DNA of 25,077 nucleotides from IMG/VR virus record IMGVR_UViG_3300048861_000143, positions 1 through 25,077 of that record; one strand, written 5' to 3'. Numbering within the stretch: position 1 is the stretch's first letter; the number at the start of each line of letters is the position of its first letter. Position numbers and translations under genes: made by a program. The stretch is from a virus. Under the pieces are notes generated by a model. The model was not told the DNA's origin. It made no database searches and was given only the letters and a program-made list of their open reading frames with translations. Below are positions 1 to 3,376 of the stretch, piece by piece.

Positions 1-215
1 TTGAATCGAGCGGAGTCCGGGTCCTTCAATCCGGCGGTCACAGCTTCCTGTCCTTGAGTGCGCCAGTCGCCCTCAACTACGCCTTCTCGCGCCGCGTCCA
101 TGAATTGCCAGTAGATCCGCTCAGACTCTTCGGGGTAGGCCGAAGCGGAGGACGCCATCGAAACTAAAACTAGCGCCGCTGCCAGGCCGATCCTGGCCGT
201 CTTGTCGTCAGGCAT
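1..215 (-). CDS. Partial (runs off left edge) exported hypothetical protein with LKDPDSARF motif
   Basis: Manual translation from ATG 215: MPDDKTARIGLAAALVLVSMASSASAYPEE...LKDPDSARF. GGAGG RBS upstream; signal-peptide-like hydrophobic stretch ending ASA. Not in ORF track. Confidence 0.75.
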   Translation of the reverse strand, partial: MPDDKTARIGLAAALVLVSMASSASAYPEESERIYWQFMDAAREGVVEGDWRTQGQEAVTAGLKDPDSARF

Positions 216-330
216 CGTTGATTACCTCCCCGTATGCGATCAGCCGCAACTCGGCATTCTCGAGCTTCCAGCGGTCGGCAAATCCGAGCAGTGGGTTGCG
301 CGTTGGCGCGGCCGTTTCAGGGTTGCTCAT
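208..330 (-). CDS. 40-aa hypothetical protein
   Basis: MSNPETAAPTRNPLLGFADRWKLENAELRLIAYGEVINDA*. Fills the gap exactly, overlaps both neighbours and carries the in-frame array motif. Confidence 0.6.
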   Translation of the reverse strand: MSNPETAAPTRNPLLGFADRWKLENAELRLIAYGEVINDA

Positions 331-511
331 CGTTGGTTTCCCCTATGCTTACGAAGCGGCCGCGCTCATCTCGCGCGACGACGATACCGGAGGCTCCACA
401 CGCCAGACATTCCTTTGGGGAGCCGTCGTCGGAGTAGTGGCCGAGTAGACCCGTCCCGCCACAGCTAGGGCACGGCACCAGGTTCCGGGCCGTTTTGTCC
501 CGGTCAGTCAT
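317..511 (-). CDS. Small zinc-finger protein (DnaJ-type CxxCxGxG pairs)
   Basis: CPSCGGTG and CLACGASG motifs; start/stop coupling with neighbours. Confidence 0.75.
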   Translation of the reverse strand: MTDRDKTARNLVPCPSCGGTGLLGHYSDDGSPKECLACGASGIVVARDERGRFVSIGETNDEQP

Positions 512-758
512 TGATTGCTCTCCGAATCGCTGCGGCGATGTTCTGCGCTGCGTGGGCCATGCTTGCGTGCGTGTGGCCCTTAGTCTGAAGACGTTCAGAC
601 ACCGCCATAGCTTCCCTTGACCCGTCGCGATTGCGTAAAACAGGGTCTGTTAGGATCGTGTCCTGCGCCAACAGGAAATTCTCGGTCGCGAACATATCCG
701 CGATGCAAGCGGCTTCCTCCAAGGCAGCGGCACGGGCCGTCTTGGATGTGTCAGTCAT
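504..758 (-). CDS. Hypothetical phage protein (84 aa)
   Basis: Start reassigned to ATG 758 (MTDTSKTAR; GGGAG RBS, ATGA overlap). AALEEAA...IAAAIR pattern is common in small phage proteins. Confidence 0.7.
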   Translation of the reverse strand: MTDTSKTARAAALEEAACIADMFATENFLLAQDTILTDPVLRNRDGSREAMAVSERLQTKGHTHASMAHAAQNIAAAIRRAIND

Positions 759-889
759 CGCTGACTCCCGTTCCGACACGCTGCGCACCAAATGCCGTGG
801 TGGTTCTGTATCGCCGGCTTCCCGCACCAAGGACAGGTGCAAGGAACACTAGTGAGGGCCGTTTTGTCCTGGCTGTCACTGCCTGACAT
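755..889 (-). CDS. 44-aa zinc-ribbon protein
   Basis: MSGSDSQDKTALTSVPCTCPWCGKPAIQNHHGIWCAACRNGSQR*. Two CxxC motifs; GAGGGAG RBS. Confidence 0.65.
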   Translation of the reverse strand: MSGSDSQDKTALTSVPCTCPWCGKPAIQNHHGIWCAACRNGSQR

Positions 890-1076
890 GCACGTCTCCC
901 TCATCATCCACCACGATCGGCGGGAGACCCTTCGAAGCCCGGATCTCGTTGCCCCGCTCCAGCGCGTGGTCATAGCAACGCTGTTCCCCGTCGATGCGAA
1001 TGCACATCTCCTCCTGGCATCCCGTGACATCGCAGCGCAGCTTGGCTGGGATCGCCGTTTGATCTTCAGCGGGCAT
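876..1076 (-). CDS. Small Cys/His protein (66 aa)
   Basis: Start reassigned to ATG 1076 (MPAEDQTAIP); CDVTGC...CYDH is a possible metal site. Confidence 0.65.
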   Translation of the reverse strand: MPAEDQTAIPAKLRCDVTGCQEEMCIRIDGEQRCYDHALERGNEIRASKGLPPIVVDDEGDVHVRQ

Positions 1077-1320
1077 CGCTTGCACCTTCCTGGTAAGCCG
1101 CATCCATCGCCTTCTCGATCTCGGCAGCAATAGGAGCGACTGACCCGAGACGGTAAGAGTCGAAGTATTCCAGGATGGAGAAAGCCACCTTCCATGATGC
1201 TTGGAAGTGACGCGGCTCGGCCGTTTCAGGATTGCCGCACAGGATGTCTTCGGCTGCCTCGACGCGGCGCCTCACGCTTTCCGGCACGGGCCGGGCCGTT
1301 TCGGATTTGCGTTCGCTCAT
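1066..1320 (-). CDS. Hypothetical protein (84 aa) containing two array motifs
   Basis: ORF track; GGAGG RBS; ETA motif near the N-terminus and again 25 codons later. Confidence 0.65.
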   Translation of the reverse strand: MSERKSETARPVPESVRRRVEAAEDILCGNPETAEPRHFQASWKVAFSILEYFDSYRLGSVAPIAAEIEKAMDAAYQEGASDAR

Positions 1321-1511
1321 TGCACCCTCCCGATACGCTTTGCTTCATCAAGCCATTCTTTGGCGGCTTTTCGGCAGTCAGCTTCGGCTGCTTCCTTGGT
1401 GTCGCCGTCCCCCATGCAGCCAGGAAGGTCAGGGGCGTAGGCTATGAAGCCATCCTCGTAGTTCAGGATGACGATCTGCGGCTCGGCCGTCTGGTTTTGG
1501 CTAACCGTCAT
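1317..1511 (-). CDS. hicB: HicB-like antitoxin domain protein (orphan)
   Basis: EDGFIAYAPDLPGCMGDGDTKEAAEADCRKAAKEWL matches the HicB N-terminal signature PDLPGCxxxGxTxEEA. No DNA-binding tail. Start 1511 (or 1517). Confidence 0.8.
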   Translation of the reverse strand: MTVSQNQTAEPQIVILNYEDGFIAYAPDLPGCMGDGDTKEAAEADCRKAAKEWLDEAKRIGRVQ

Positions 1512-1659
1512 TTTCATCCATCCCGTGCTCAAGCCGCCATGCGCGATCGTCCCACTCACAGGCTTCGGCTTCGCTGCCGACCGGAGACCTTCTGCTTTCC
1601 TCCGCCATGCGGCGGCAATAAGCGATACGTCTCTCGGTGGCCGTTTCAGGATTGGGCAT
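1501..1659 (-). CDS. 52-aa hypothetical protein
   Basis: Start reassigned to ATG 1659 (MPNPETATE) with GAAGGGA RBS. Confidence 0.6.
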   Translation of the reverse strand: MPNPETATERRIAYCRRMAEESRRSPVGSEAEACEWDDRAWRLEHGMDENDG

Positions 1660-1879
1660 TGTCGGTTCCCTTCTTCGGCTCACGCCAGAACACGGTGTAA
1701 TCGCGCCGCCCCAAGATCAGCGTTATGCAGGTCGGATAGAAGATCAGCGCGACATTCACTCGGATGCCAGAGACATCCCACCCAGCGTCGAGCGCGTCTG
1801 TCCGGCCGAACGTCAGCTTCCGCCATCGTCTCACCCATATAGCGCGCTTGGTTGGGGCCGTTTTGTCGTCAGCGGGCAT
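1646..1879 (-). CDS. 77-aa hypothetical protein
   Basis: Start reassigned to ATG 1879 (MPADDKTAP) with GGAGG RBS. Confidence 0.65.
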   Translation of the reverse strand: MPADDKTAPTKRAIWVRRWRKLTFGRTDALDAGWDVSGIRVNVALIFYPTCITLILGRRDYTVFWREPKKGTDNAQS

Positions 1880-2057
1880 TGATTGCCTCCAACCTTCCGA
1901 TTTCTGCCGCAGCTTCGGTGAAGAGCCTGTAGTGACACAGCAGATCGTGGAAGCTGATGTCGGGTGTCTTGGTAGAGCATGTGCAGCCCGCAATGCAGGC
2001 TCTGAACAGGCGCTCTTTCAGGGGCGGCACCGCCGCCGTTTCATTCTGCGCCATCAT
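1869..2057 (-). CDS. 62-aa Cys/His protein
   Basis: CxC...H...C pattern; GAGG RBS; coupled overlaps. Confidence 0.65.
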   Translation of the reverse strand: MMAQNETAAVPPLKERLFRACIAGCTCSTKTPDISFHDLLCHYRLFTEAAAEIGRLEAINAR

Positions 2058-2238
2058 TGGTTGCCTCGCTGTGCTTTGCGGCGTTGATGAGCCCTATCAA
2101 CTCGTTCGCCTCACTGATCGGCATGCAGTATTCCGTGCTGCCGATGGATATTCCGATCTCACCTGCCCGGATCACTCGGACGCGCTTGGTGTGCCTCCCT
2201 GCGTGGATTAGGCGGCCGGCCGTTTGATCAGCGGGCAT
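2041..2238 (-). CDS. 65-aa hypothetical protein
   Basis: ORF track; GGAGG RBS; QTA motif. Confidence 0.65.
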   Translation of the reverse strand: MPADQTAGRLIHAGRHTKRVRVIRAGEIGISIGSTEYCMPISEANELIGLINAAKHSEATNDGAE

Positions 2239-2437
2239 GGCTGCTTACAACCTCCAAAATAGACCTGCGCCAGACCGCCCTAGCACGTGTGGTCATATGC
2301 TGCCCCGACAGCGGGCGGACAGTTAGTTTCCCCCAACTGTCGCATTCGATGACAGCTTTGTAGTTCGGTCGGCCCTTCACCAACACGACATCTCCCTCGG
2401 TTGCCTTGTCCGTCGTCTGGTTCGTGTCAGAAGCCAT
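2228..2437 (-). CDS. 69-aa hypothetical protein, possible SH3/KOW-like barrel
   Basis: GDVVLVKG...AVI...LTVR pattern; GGAGG RBS; variant motif (QTT). Confidence 0.6.
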   Translation of the reverse strand: MASDTNQTTDKATEGDVVLVKGRPNYKAVIECDSWGKLTVRPLSGQHMTTRARAVWRRSILEVVSSHAR

Positions 2438-2597
2438 GTGCTTCCCTCCACTCGTCTACTAGCGCCAACGCAGCTTCAAAGGTGATCCGCCGTTGGGCGG
2501 CTAAGGTCTCGGCGGCAGCGCGCCTGTGCCCTACGCGAATGAGAGCGCAGATATCCCATGCTAAGCGTGGGGGTGCGGGTGCGTCAGGATTCGGCAT
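2427..2597 (-). CDS. 56-aa hypothetical protein
   Basis: MPNPDAPAPPRLAWDICALIRVGHRRAAAETLAAQRRITFEAALALVDEWREAHGF*. AGGAG RBS; overlaps the stop of 2584-3285. Not in ORF track. Confidence 0.6.
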   Translation of the reverse strand: MPNPDAPAPPRLAWDICALIRVGHRRAAAETLAAQRRITFEAALALVDEWREAHGF

Positions 2598-3285
2598 CGT
2601 TCTTTCTCCTTGCTCTGTTCCGCTCTGCCGTAGCTACGGCCAGGTCATGTTTCCTCTGCGCCTCGGGACGATGCCCCAGGTAGTTCTTGGCGGTGGCGTA
2701 GGCCATCGGGATCGTGACGGTGCTCCGTCCGATCTTCCGCTGCCTGCCAGCCCGCATCAGTAGCTCGGGGGTTGGCACGTCGCGTCGGACCCAATCAGCC
2801 CGGATCGACTCTGCGCGGCGTTGCGCATCCTCCATCCGGGCGCGCTTCGACGCCTCTGCTCCGACGCGCCTCCCACCGCCCGCCTCCGCGCTGCGCTTCT
2901 TGGCCAGGAATAGCTTAACGGCCTCGTCCAGCACGTCCGCTCCTGCGTCTGGCGGGATGCGCAACCCGGCATCCACGGCAATCACCGTAGCGGCTCGCGC
3001 ACGTGCCGCAGCCAGGCACGCGGTCAGGTCGGAAACATCCCAAGCCAGCACCGGAAGCGACGCCACGTAGATCGTCTCCCCGATCGGCTTGCGCCTGGTC
3101 TCCCTGAGCATAGAGGCCCTGGCCTCCATCGCCTCTCTAGACTGGCCGCGCCGCTTCGCTGGCACCAGCACGTCCCGGTAGATAGAAGCGTCAGGCCAGT
3201 CCGGAACAACCCCGGAAAGAAGGGCCTCCTGAGCCGGGACCGGCCACGTTTTGGCGATGTTCGAGATGTAAGCCCTGTTTCGCAT
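2584..3285 (-). CDS. Serine recombinase/resolvase-fold protein with degenerate catalytic motifs
   Basis: Motif order matches a resolvase N-domain: RAYIS (cf. GYARVS), AQEALL, IYRD, R..ML...R..GETIYVASLPVLAWD..DL (cf. GDxLVVxxLDRLxR..DL). Basic helical C-terminus. Confidence 0.6.
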   Translation of the reverse strand: MRNRAYISNIAKTWPVPAQEALLSGVVPDWPDASIYRDVLVPAKRRGQSREAMEARASMLRETRRKPIGETIYVASLPVLAWDVSDLTACLAAARARAATVIAVDAGLRIPPDAGADVLDEAVKLFLAKKRSAEAGGGRRVGAEASKRARMEDAQRRAESIRADWVRRDVPTPELLMRAGRQRKIGRSTVTIPMAYATAKNYLGHRPEAQRKHDLAVATAERNRARRKNDAES

Positions 3286-3309
3286 GGCATCCGTGCTTTT
3301 GTTGTTTAC

Positions 3310-3338
3310 AAGCTATCCTCCGTTGATGCAAAATGCAA
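3310..3338 (-). promoter_or_regulatory. Candidate sigma70 promoter for the leftward operon
   Basis: Minus strand TTGCAT (3338-3333), 17-nt spacer, TAGCTT (3315-3310), in the AT-richer divergent gap 3286-3376. Confidence 0.5.
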
Positions 3339-3376
3339 GGGACAAAAGAGAGCAGCCAAACGGACGGAGCGGACAG

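What the first reader, a model, noticed from the sequence alone, without database searches (positions are those of the whole stretch)
2584..3285. Degenerate serine-resolvase-fold protein at the hinge of the two arrays
Seen: resolvase-like motif order, but the canonical YxRxS reads YISNI and DRLxR reads PVLAW. Known: serine recombinases need that Ser and those Arg residues. The gene heads the left array and diverges from the right array, as intI sits beside attI. Inference: it is a recombinase with altered chemistry, a site-binding/synapsis factor for a catalytic partner encoded elsewhere, or a repressor binding the repeated words (compare mycobacteriophage L5 stoperators, which are also transcription-oriented and at gene junctions).
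Basis: partly seen in the sequence, partly recalled or inferred. Interest (0 to 1): 0.85.

Follow-up and report, generated by a model that had tools for sequence, protein, structure and literature searches.

The report
Dead resolvase heading phage early genes
This soil-phage gene encodes a protein built like a DNA-cutting resolvase that has lost four of its six key catalytic residues but kept its DNA-binding parts; its relatives always sit at the same promoter junction in front of tiny early genes, so it is most likely a recombinase turned gene regulator.

Summary
Observation confirmed. ORF 2584-3285 (-) encodes a 233-aa protein with no Pfam hit, but its model matches gamma-delta, Tn3 and Sin resolvases (Z 12.3). 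A 94-sequence family profile matches Tn3 resolvase through the C-terminal HTH (E 6e-6).

Of the six residues crucial in Tn3 resolvase, Y6 and D36 are kept. The equivalents of R8, S10, R68 and R71 are S, I/L, V/C and W/F across about 200 uncharacterised metagenomic clusters.

The gene heads its operon at a short divergent junction in all 11 gene tables that show the upstream side. Genes downstream of it carry an in-frame N-terminal [KEQ]-T-[TA] word far more often than other genes (16/31 versus 1/55).

In five related loci a T5orf172 (GIY-YIG) nuclease gene follows or overlaps it, and in four clusters the two are fused. This genome has no T5orf172 gene and no true serine recombinase.

Best reading (about 0.45): a dimeric, catalytically dead resolvase derivative that binds the two overlapping divergent promoters at the hinge and regulates them, as TnpR does at res.

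Direct binding to the repeated words, a targeting role for a nuclease, or odd chemistry are not excluded. This is a new variant of a known kind. The scan had noted the word array in this window and a dead resolvase in an E. coli prophage.

The parts
2584..3285 (-). Gene for the 233-aa degenerate small serine-recombinase homologue (P0001)
   Evidence: ORF and translation. Resolvase fold at Z 12.3. Family profile matches Tn3 resolvase at E 6e-6. No Pfam hit for this member.
2950..3285 (-). Residues 1-112: resolvase-like alpha/beta domain with a degenerate active site. Y6-I-S8-N-I10 replaces Y-x-R-x-S, D38 corresponds to D36, and P78-V-L-A-W82 replaces D-R-L-G-R.
   Evidence: Secondary structure, structural alignment, profile alignment, family conservation.
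2806..2940 (-). Residues 116-160: long helix corresponding to resolvase helix E. Its N-terminal part, together with helix 84-96, forms the predicted homodimer interface.
   Evidence: Homodimer model ipSAE 0.58 against best control 0.10; interface residues 84-96 and 112-127.
2677..2772 (-). Residues 172-203: helix-turn-helix aligned to the resolvase HTH. T198 is nearly invariant. This subfamily carries a basic 12-residue beta-hairpin insertion (181-192) in the turn.
   Evidence: The profile alignment runs through the Tn3 resolvase HTH. Five members give weak HTH_7 hits. The 2gm4_B alignment spans model residues 2-205. The insertion shows as gaps in most relatives.
2590..2667 (-). Residues 207-232: extra basic C-terminal helix following the conserved L-G-x-R-P-x-A-Q. 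Canonical resolvases lack it.
   Evidence: R206 in 120 of 127, Q210 in 87 of 127.
3286..3376 (.). The 91-bp hinge with two overlapping divergent promoter-like sites. The leftward site has -35 TTGCAT at 3338-3333 and -10 TAGCTT at 3315-3310. The rightward site has -35 TTTACA at 3305-3310 and -10 CAAAAT at 3329-3334. Each -10 lies on or next to the other's -35. Both leaders carry ACAAAAG (inverted repeat 3296-3302 / 3342-3348). This is the candidate operator region.
   Evidence: Sequence; rightward site from the scan; leftward site read from the eight-locus alignment, where TTGAC.., TAG.TT and GTAAACAACAAA are conserved; inverted repeats here and in L012 and L008.
1..2597 (-). Co-directional downstream array of tiny genes. 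Thirteen of them carry the in-frame word VAR-ACG-GCS (residues [KEQ]-T-A), or the QTT variant at the gene starting 2437, 3-8 codons after the start codon. The array continues across the record junction to genes starting at 149203 and 148905.
   Evidence: (12 matches against 1.25 expected).

Best explanation
The gene encodes a catalytically dead descendant of a small serine recombinase (resolvase/invertase type). It has kept the parts that bind DNA and pair two subunits: helix E, the arm with its conserved Gly, and the C-terminal helix-turn-helix.

Shown here:
- the resolvase fold and profile-level homology;
- loss of the equivalents of R8, S10, R68 and R71 throughout the family;
- the gene's fixed place as first gene of an operon at a short divergent junction in every related phage locus examined;
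- an unusually conserved promoter and leader in that junction.

Inferred:
- The protein binds as a dimer to the partly palindromic region where the two divergent promoters overlap.
- Binding sets the balance between the two operons or shuts them off. This includes negative control of its own operon of tiny early or accessory genes.
- This is what Tn3/gamma-delta TnpR does at res as a side job, and what Cro, Ner or Cox do from the same gene position.

In some relatives the same DNA-binding module is coupled or fused to a T5orf172 nuclease domain. The module is therefore best seen as a portable DNA-targeting unit. In this phage it works without that nuclease.
For: Fold and homology:
- VIA-align Z 12.3 to gamma-delta resolvase; the 24 best entries are all serine recombinases.
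- Foldseek top hits are Tn3 and gamma-delta resolvase.
- Family profile against PDB: Tn3 resolvase E 6.3e-6, aligned through the HTH.
- 25 of 94 members give weak PF00239 hits, and P0063, P0071, P0113 and P0123 pass its cut-off.
- The ESM Atlas structure neighbours are resolvases.

Dead active site:
-, set against the six crucial residues of Tn3 resolvase (PMC2794168).
- That paper also reports that none of its active-site mutations strongly inhibited binding to site I.

Dimer:
- Homodimer model ipSAE 0.58 against best control 0.10. The three runs share at least 91% of contacts and partner pLDDT is at least 83.
- That mark was reached by 20 of 30 proteins solved as pairs and 1 of 23 solved as single chains.
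- The interface is helix 84-96 plus the start of helix E. Because resolvase dimers are solved, this pass may be memory of them.

Position:
- A divergent neighbour lies 50-100 nt upstream in 11 of 11 gene tables that show the upstream side.

Promoter:
- TTGAC.-N17/18-TAG.TT-GTAAACAACAAA is conserved between loci whose proteins are only 40-50% identical.
- It overlaps a rightward sigma-70-like site.
- It is flanked by inverted repeats: 14-nt arms in L012, 10- and 12-nt arms in L008, 7-nt arms here.

No catalytic partner in this genome:
- No PF00239 match and no T5orf172 match.
Against: - No binding site has been demonstrated. The inverted repeats largely coincide with the two -35 hexamers and the two similar leaders, so they need not be operators.
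- A main cro/repressor switch was noted elsewhere in this genome by another reader (e1-5694897, unchecked), so this would be a second, local control.
- Y6, S8, N9, W14, Q19, D38 and R56 are more conserved than a dead pocket needs. That may mean a function at the old active site that I cannot name.
- The tight link with word-headed genes and with T5orf172 nucleases suggests a role beyond plain promoter control.
Confidence: 0.45

Rival explanations
1. DNA-targeting subunit for a separate catalytic protein. The dead resolvase recognises a site and recruits or positions a nuclease. In relatives the nuclease is the T5orf172 (GIY-YIG-type) protein encoded immediately downstream or fused. This would be like modular phage homing endonucleases, or like Odn, which joins a borrowed DNA-binding domain to a T5orf172 nuclease domain.
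For: - A T5orf172/MUG113 gene directly follows the homologue in L005/L006, L008, L012, L015 and L017-L019. In four of these five loci it overlaps by 4-20 nt.
- Four cluster representatives (P0028, P0088, P0127, P0155) are single proteins with the resolvase-like part followed by T5orf172.
- T5orf172 is described as a GIY-YIG subfamily nuclease of phage homing endonucleases with exchangeable DNA-binding domains. A domesticated relative, CapR, acts as a repressor (bioRxiv 10.1101/2023.03.23.533998).
Against: - This genome has no T5orf172 match at all.
- About two thirds of the loci examined lack the nuclease. The next gene here is an unrelated 56-aa ORF.
- The fusions could be sequencing frameshifts of overlapping genes, although four separate clusters show them.
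Confidence: 0.17
2. Binder of the repeated words. The protein recognises the oriented word (AAACGGCC here, ACGACC-type in relatives) at the 5' end of each downstream gene. It either blocks transcription along its own operon, like L5 stoperators, or marks the words as sites where cassettes are exchanged in frame.
For: - AAACGGMC occurs 12 times against 1.25 expected, strand-locked to the arrays.
- 15 word-headed genes lie in one array directly downstream of this gene. The 9 other matching starts in the 150-kb genome are scattered.
- In ten other loci, genes downstream of the homologue carry the word in 16 of 31 cases against 1 of 55 for other genes. Fisher p is 4e-8, or 4e-12 with a looser pattern.
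- Within this genome the codons are fixed: ACG in 15 of 15.
- A minor-variant contig of the source sample (depth 4.4 against 21.9) follows the reference for 95 nt and departs from it exactly at the 3' edge of the word at 1639.
Against: - The words are always in one reading frame. A DNA-binding protein has no need for that.
- Across loci the residues T-[TA] are kept while the codons vary (ACG, ACC, ACT; ACC, ACA, GCC). This points to a peptide- or translation-level meaning.
- Word-headed genes also occur away from the homologue, in the RecT operon of L003.
- Recognition-helix residue 197 is Ala in both T-A loci, but also in L015 and L016, which have T-T words.
- A single 8-bp oriented site does not fit a symmetric dimer.
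- The variant contig is a single case and may be a diverged allele.
Confidence: 0.12
3. An active recombinase or nuclease with non-canonical chemistry. It would use the conserved Y6, S8, N9, D38 and R56 cluster in place of the Ser10, Arg8, Arg68 and Arg71 set.
For: - Y6, S8 and N9 are very strongly conserved.
- One member, P0063, even reads Y-I-R-A-S-T.
- The gene is always next to arrays of direct repeats.
Against: - The equivalents of R68 and R71 are never basic in 127 relatives, and D67 is A or P.
- Mutation of any of Y6, R8, S10, D36, R68 or R71 greatly reduces cleavage and recombination by Tn3 resolvase (PMC2794168).
- S8 replaces an Arg, not the nucleophile.
- The residue at the helix-A cap (position 15) varies among P, T and S.
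Confidence: 0.04
4. A decoy or dominant-negative partner. It would pair through the helix-E interface with serine recombinases of the host, of rival phages or of satellites, and block them.
For: - The predicted dimer interface is the resolvase one.
- The neighbouring arrays in relatives hold anti-defence-type genes: an Acb2/Tad1 hairpin protein in L015 and Lar on the P0014 contig.
Against: - Nothing points to a specific target.
- The conserved arm, HTH and extra basic helix would not be needed for a pure protein decoy.
Confidence: 0.04

Closest known systems
Tn3 / gamma-delta resolvase TnpR (small serine recombinases, Pfam PF00239 + HTH_7)
   Same: - The same catalytic-domain fold, long helix E, Gly-containing arm and C-terminal HTH in the same order.
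- Y6 and D36 are kept.
- A resolvase-type dimer is predicted.
- The gene sits at a short divergent control region. By general knowledge, TnpR represses the divergent tnpA and tnpR promoters from res.
   Different: - The equivalents of R8, S10, D67, R68 and R71 are replaced in the whole family.
- There is a longer loop after strand 1, a basic hairpin inside the HTH turn and an extra basic C-terminal helix.
- No three-subsite res was found.
- The setting is phage early operons, not transposons.
Modular T5orf172 (GIY-YIG subfamily) phage nucleases and their domesticated relatives (ICP1 homing endonucleases, Odn, PLE CapR; I-TevI as nuclease plus autorepressor)
   Same: In relatives the resolvase-like module is translationally coupled or fused to a T5orf172 domain. 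It thus takes the place that CapR-type zinc fingers or RepA_N domains take in those nucleases. Stand-alone DNA-binding descendants of such nucleases act as repressors.
   Different: - A resolvase-derived DNA-binding module was not among the ones described in that paper.
- This phage has the module alone, with no T5orf172 gene anywhere.
Mycobacteriophage L5 gp71 repressor and stoperators
   Same: Many short asymmetric sites, oriented with transcription and spread along early genes, in a phage that also encodes a DNA-binding protein near by.
   Different: - The words here lie inside coding sequence, locked to one frame 3-8 codons after the start. Stoperators, by general knowledge, lie in short intergenic gaps.
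- No binding is shown.
- The protein fold is unrelated to gp71.
Degenerate resolvase-like proteins of cryptic prophages
   Same: A resolvase-like protein without catalytic residues, encoded in a prophage context.
   Different: I did not compare the sequences. No link to word-headed gene arrays or T5orf172 is reported for that case.

Membership tests
Small serine recombinases (resolvase/invertase, PF00239 + HTH_7) | Resolvase catalytic-domain fold followed by helix E | tested here: met
   VIA-align Z 12.3, rmsd 3.7 A, 115 of 116 residues of 2gm5_C aligned. The 24 best entries are all serine recombinases. Foldseek agrees.
Small serine recombinases (resolvase/invertase, PF00239 + HTH_7) | Sequence match to the family model | tested here: inconclusive
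   P0001 itself gives no Pfam hit at E up to 10. The 94-row family profile matches Tn3 resolvase at E 6.3e-6. 25 of 94 relatives hit PF00239 weakly, and four pass its 23.3-bit cut-off.
Small serine recombinases (resolvase/invertase, PF00239 + HTH_7) | Nucleophilic Ser10 in the Y-x-R-x-S-T motif | tested here: not met
   Position 10 is I or L in 90 of 127 relatives and G in 9. Only P0063 reads Y-I-R-A-S-T. The alternative register (position 15, at the cap of helix A) varies among P, T and S.
Small serine recombinases (resolvase/invertase, PF00239 + HTH_7) | Catalytic arginines R8, R68 and R71 | tested here: not met
   Position 8 is S in 96 and R in 11. Position 79 is V, C, I or L. Position 82 is W, F, L or V. 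The mapping of 78-82 on D67-R71 comes from the profile alignment. The essential role of these residues is from PMC2794168.
Small serine recombinases (resolvase/invertase, PF00239 + HTH_7) | Y6 and D36 | tested here: met
   Y6 is invariant in the 94-row alignment. D38, which takes the place of D36, is in 122 of 127. The D36 mapping rests on the structural alignment and the order of elements, not on a residue-level sequence alignment (one search aligned only from residue 58 on).
Small serine recombinases (resolvase/invertase, PF00239 + HTH_7) | C-terminal helix-turn-helix DNA-binding domain | tested here: met
   The profile alignment runs through the Tn3 HTH. 2gm4_B aligns to model residues 2-205. 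Five relatives give sub-threshold HTH_7 hits.
Small serine recombinases (resolvase/invertase, PF00239 + HTH_7) | Cognate recombination sites (paired inverted half-sites such as res, hix or gix) next to the gene | tested here: inconclusive
   The hinge holds only short inverted repeats, which coincide with promoter elements. The repeated words are single, direct and non-palindromic.
T5orf172-type modular phage nucleases | A T5orf172/GIY-YIG domain in the protein or in a coupled neighbour | tested here: not met
   No PF10544 match anywhere in this 149.8-kb genome. The feature is met in relatives: five loci with an adjacent gene and four fused cluster representatives.
L5-type stoperator repression | Asymmetric repeated sites in intergenic gaps, bound by the phage repressor | tested here: inconclusive
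   The sites are oriented and repeated but lie in frame inside genes. Binding cannot be tested with these tools. The residue-197 covariation test failed.
Integron (IntI, attI, attC cassettes) | A tyrosine recombinase divergent from a cassette array punctuated by folded attC sites | tested here: not met
   The protein has a serine-recombinase fold. It is co-directional with the word array. The words are 8-nt in-frame coding words, not imperfect palindromes between genes.

The most novel reading that the evidence does not exclude
The dead resolvase and the frame-locked words together form a new kind of phage gene-cassette system. The protein, alone or with a nuclease partner such as T5orf172, would recognise the in-frame word at the 5' end of each tiny gene. 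It would promote exchange, loss or capture of gene bodies there. Every new junction would then inherit a ready-made ribosome-binding site, start codon and N-terminal stub, and would stay in frame.
Probability: 0.08. Interest if true: 0.9.

Novelty: new variant of a known kind. Interest (0 to 1): 0.6.

Why it matters
Serine recombinases are studied as enzymes and as genome-engineering tools. A large, conserved family that has kept the scaffold, dimer helix and DNA-binding domain but lost the chemistry would be a natural case of a recombinase turned into a pure DNA-binding factor.

Three further points add to the interest:
- The family is absent from Pfam and from the GenBank phage and PLSDB plasmid collections searched here.
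- Its fixed place at a compact pair of overlapping divergent promoters, in front of arrays that in relatives hold anti-defence-type genes, makes it a candidate master control of phage accessory genes.
- Its repeated coupling to T5orf172 nuclease domains adds a new DNA-targeting module to the set used by phage homing-type nucleases.

Its statistical link with genes that all begin with the same in-frame word also gives a concrete way to test what that unexplained word is for.

Tried and rejected
- Pfam and PHROGs on P0001: nothing usable.
- The 8-row profile against PDB: nothing. Only the 94-row profile reached resolvases.
- An N-terminal-only profile (A6) aligned to resolvase only from residue 58 on. 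The N-terminal residue mapping therefore rests on structure.
- tblastn of P0001 and P0016 against GenBank phages, and of P0001 against PLSDB plasmids: no match.
- Collection scans gave few loci: one viral, two metagenomic, none and then three short MAG contigs in genome contigs.
- Relatives cannot be drawn for a virus record.
- Covariation of HTH residue 197 (Ala) with the T-A word looked promising in two loci. L015 and L016 refuted it: both have Ala but T-T words.
- All-against-all BLAST of array ORFs found only one cross-locus pair (window 1066-1320 with L003 10105-10326). No test of cassette shuffling was possible.
- No paralogue of P0001 in the genome.
- Sequencing runs: one DNA holder, probably the source sample, kept as contigs; no RNA holder listed.
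- Laying the run's contigs on the window showed no word-to-word joint. The single 'goes back' joint is the paralogous 35-nt start module at 149.2 kb.
- Literature searches for inactive or degenerate resolvases found no description of such a family.
Full report
SETTING

The window is the first 25 kb of a 149.8-kb IMG/VR virus record, estimated 97% complete. The last 60 bases of the record recur at window position 98, so the record closes on itself or is terminally redundant. The rest of the window encodes giant FN3-repeat proteins, a GH5-domain protein and a lysis-type cluster with GH108, a lytic transglycosylase domain and a lipase. The one sequencing run that holds the stretch is labelled a soil metagenome.

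THE OBSERVATION

ORF 2584-3285 on the minus strand encodes 233 residues. Pfam gives no hit at E up to 10. PHROGs gives only a non-significant hit to a family of unknown function.

An AlphaFold2 model built on eight homologues has mean pLDDT 82. It shows alternating strands and helices in the resolvase order, then a 45-residue helix (116-160), then a helical C-terminal domain.

- Foldseek ranks Tn3 and gamma-delta resolvase first, best E 3.4e-4.
- By VIA-align, the 24 best PDB entries are all serine recombinases. The best is the gamma-delta resolvase catalytic domain 2gm5_C: Z 12.3, rmsd 3.7 A, 115 of 116 residues.
- Z then falls to 6.9 and 6.7 for an M. jannaschii putative DNA-binding protein and a putative C. 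difficile recombinase, and to 5.7 for unrelated folds.

The fold claim is therefore confirmed.

HOMOLOGY, NOT ONLY FOLD

A full HMMER search of 1.84 billion cluster representatives finds 203 relatives at E up to 1e-3, and 123 at 1e-10.

- A profile of 94 of them matches Tn3 resolvase at E 6.3e-6 and gamma-delta resolvase at 5.8e-5. The match covers resolvase residues 50-190, so it includes helix E, the arm and the helix-turn-helix.
- 25 of the 94 give weak PF00239 hits, and five give weak HTH_7 hits.
- Four distant members (P0063, P0071, P0113, P0123) pass the PF00239 gathering score.
- The ESM Atlas neighbours by structure are one cluster of mostly viral hypothetical proteins, followed by resolvases.

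The family is a divergent, unnamed branch of the small serine recombinases.

THE ACTIVE SITE

Olorunniji and Stark found that mutating Y6, R8, S10, D36, R68 or R71 of Tn3 resolvase greatly reduces cleavage and recombination. No active-site mutation strongly inhibited binding to site I (PMC2794168). The 127 full-length relatives compare as follows.

- Y6 is invariant in the 94-row alignment.
- D38, which takes the place of D36, is in 122.
- Position 8 is Ser in 96 and Arg in 11.
- Position 10 is Ile or Leu in 90 and Gly in 9.
- The profile alignment places A/P-V/C-L-A-W/F on D67-R68-L69-G70-R71. Neither arginine position is ever basic.
- One member, P0063, still reads Y-I-R-A-S-T but also lacks the two arginines.

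The N-terminal 58 residues did not align to resolvase by sequence, so the mapping of residues 6-10 rests on the structural alignment of strand 1. If helix A is used as the register instead, the nucleophile position would be residue 15, which varies among Pro, Thr and Ser. Either way there is no conserved nucleophile.

Four of the six crucial residues are gone in the whole family. Canonical recombinase chemistry is very unlikely.

Several polar residues near the old pocket remain strongly conserved: Y6, S8, N9, W14, Q19, D38 and R56. I could not explain this.

WHAT IS KEPT

- Helix E is kept.
- A conserved glycine, G142, is present in 111 of 127. It aligns with the Gly of the N-E-G-R arm segment of Tn3 resolvase, just before the HTH.
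- The HTH is kept, with T198 in 116 and R206 in 120 of 127.

This subfamily adds a basic 12-residue hairpin in the HTH turn and an extra basic C-terminal helix.

A two-copy model passes its controls. The ipSAE is 0.58 against 0.10 for the best control. The three runs share at least 91% of contacts, and pLDDT is at least 83. That mark was reached by 20 of 30 proteins solved as pairs and by 1 of 23 solved as single chains. The interface is helix 84-96 plus the start of helix E. Resolvase dimers are solved, so this may be recall and shows likeness only.

CONTEXT IS CONSERVED

I fetched loci for relatives that are 27-67% identical to P0001. In all 11 gene tables where the upstream side is visible, the gene is the first of its strand run. 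A divergent gene starts 50-100 nt away.

The neighbourhoods are phage-like. They include tyrosine integrases, AlpA, RecT, DUF5131, an Acb2/Tad1-type protein and Lar.

The spacer itself is strikingly conserved for non-coding DNA: TTGAC., then 17-18 nt, then TAG.TT, then GTAAACAACAAA.

In the window this leftward promoter-like site interlocks with a rightward sigma-70-like site.
- Leftward site: -35 at 3338-3333 and -10 at 3315-3310.
- Rightward site: -35 at 3305-3310 and -10 at 3329-3334.
- Each -10 lies against the other's -35, so one polymerase probably excludes the other.
- Both leaders carry ACAAAAG as an inverted pair.
- L012 and L008 have longer inverted arms of 14 nt and of 10 and 12 nt around the same core.

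THE ARRAYS

Other first-stage notes (e1-5694883, e1-5694885) cover the arrays. I checked what bears on this protein.

- AAACGGMC occurs 12 times against 1.25 expected, strand-locked.
- On the left array it always reads xAA/xAG-ACG-GCC, 3-8 codons after an ATG that has a Shine-Dalgarno sequence.
- A genome-wide scan of 674 starts with a Shine-Dalgarno sequence finds 15 distinct word-headed genes in one run. The run goes from 2437 down to 215 and on across the record junction to 149203 and 148905. The 9 other matches are scattered.
- The same feature recurs beside the homologues, as [KEQ]-T-T or T-A. In ten other loci, 16 of 31 genes co-directionally downstream carry it, against 1 of 55 other called genes. 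Fisher p is 4e-8, or 4e-12 with a looser pattern. The loci are related, so these are not fully independent counts.

The nature of the word is still open.
- In this genome the codons are fixed, which suggests a nucleotide-level constraint.
- Across loci the residues are kept while the codons vary, and the frame never changes. That points to the peptide, to translation or to in-frame exchange. Simple protein binding to DNA explains none of these.
- Word-headed genes also occur in the RecT operon of L003, away from the homologue.
- The one covariation lead, Ala197 with T-A words, was refuted by L015 and L016.

A SECOND, UNEXPECTED LINK

In five independent loci the next gene encodes a T5orf172/MUG113 domain. 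In four of these five loci it overlaps the homologue by 4-20 nt. Four longer cluster representatives are fusions of the resolvase-like part with a C-terminal T5orf172 domain.

The literature describes T5orf172 as follows (10.1101/2023.03.23.533998).
- It is a GIY-YIG subfamily nuclease domain of phage homing endonucleases.
- It is combined with interchangeable DNA-binding domains.
- The paper links these endonucleases to PLE CapR. A related preprint title (10.1101/2020.11.28.402263, listed, not read here) describes a domesticated endonuclease that tunes phage gene expression.
- The GIY-YIG endonuclease I-TevI doubles as a repressor.

In part of the family, therefore, the dead resolvase serves as the DNA-targeting module of a nuclease. 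This genome has no T5orf172 gene, no PF00239 gene and one tyrosine recombinase 80 kb away. Here the protein acts alone or with an unrecognised partner.

MECHANISM

Shown:
- the fold and the homology;
- the loss of catalytic residues;
- the retained DNA-binding parts;
- the fixed hinge position and the conserved promoter;
- the association with word-headed genes and with T5orf172.

Inferred: the protein binds as a dimer at the overlapping promoter pair and controls both operons, including its own. This would be the TnpR-at-res habit with the chemistry removed, from the gene position that Cro, Ner or Cox hold in other phages. I put this at about 0.45.

The rivals are:
- a targeting subunit for a nuclease (0.17);
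- a binder of the words, as stoperator-like blocks or as exchange sites (0.12);
- non-canonical chemistry (0.04);
- a decoy for other recombinases (0.04).

The remainder is something not thought of.

A HINT FOR THE BOLD READING

The source run holds a minor-variant contig at depth 4.4 against 21.9. It matches the window for 95 nt, with three differences, up to the last base of the word at 1639. It then continues with 255 nt found nowhere else in this genome. This is a single case and may be a diverged allele. It is nevertheless the kind of breakpoint that a word-based exchange would leave.

NOVELTY

Degenerate resolvase-like proteins are not unheard of. The scan itself noted one in an E. coli prophage (e1-451525, not checked here). 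I found no description of this family, of its hinge position, or of its coupling to T5orf172 and to word-headed gene arrays. It has no match in the GenBank phage or PLSDB plasmid collections. I class it as a new variant of a known kind, of moderate to high interest.

Noticed in passing
window 1-157 and G000 149644-149800: The last 60 bases of the 149.8-kb record recur at window position 98, so the ends overlap by about 157 nt. The genome is circular or terminally redundant, although it is classed as linear. No exact end-to-end repeat was found, so the overlap has at least one mismatch. The word-headed gene array runs across this junction.
   Followed up: partly
L005 1989-2333; L008 824-1273; L012 1534-2010; L015 3644-4201; L017 804-1328; proteins P0028, P0088, P0127, P0155: A T5orf172/MUG113 (GIY-YIG-type nuclease) gene follows or overlaps the dead-resolvase gene in five loci, and is fused to it in four cluster representatives. 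This would be a domain combination not seen in the T5orf172 paper I read.
   Followed up: partly
window 1639-1733: In the probable source run, a 381-nt minor-variant contig (depth 4.4 against 21.9) matches this stretch with three differences. It then diverges exactly at the 3' edge of the word at 1639 into sequence absent from the genome. The main assembly is also broken at 1704-1733.
   Followed up: partly
window 1066-1320 (-) and L003 10105-10326: This 84-aa array gene carries two in-frame words, SETA at codons 6-9 and PETA at codons 31-34. Its only cross-locus homologue starts at a word (MGDESQTA) that aligns with the second one. The window gene therefore looks like two start modules joined in frame.
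   Followed up: partly
window 195-229, 1856-1890 and other copies (repeat finder family D1): The repeated unit is longer than the 8-nt word. About 35 nt are alike between genes (63-80%): Shine-Dalgarno sequence, AATCAA spacer, ATG, three to five codons and the word. The likeness stops at the word's 3' edge.
   Followed up: partly
window 3296-3348: The two divergent promoter-like sites interlock, with each -10 against the other's -35. Both predicted leaders contain ACAAAAG. This is a very compact two-way switch layout, conserved in relatives.
   Followed up: partly
G000 84837-85379 (locus L020): The one tyrosine recombinase (PF00589, 71 bits) in the genome lies about 80 kb from the array.
   Followed up: no
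L017, L018, L019: Contigs carrying the same element (same ORFs, each 41% identical to the query) sit in MAGs labelled Verrucomicrobia, beta proteobacterium and Acetobacteraceae. This is probably one phage binned into unrelated genomes, so these labels say nothing about the host.
   Followed up: no
L015 64-318; contig of P0014 (2367-2558); L002 981-1784 and 6269-7996: The regions around homologues hold anti-defence-type or odd genes: an Acb2/Tad1 hairpin protein, Lar restriction alleviation, a Thg1-like protein and a methyltransferase-Mrr fusion.
   Followed up: no
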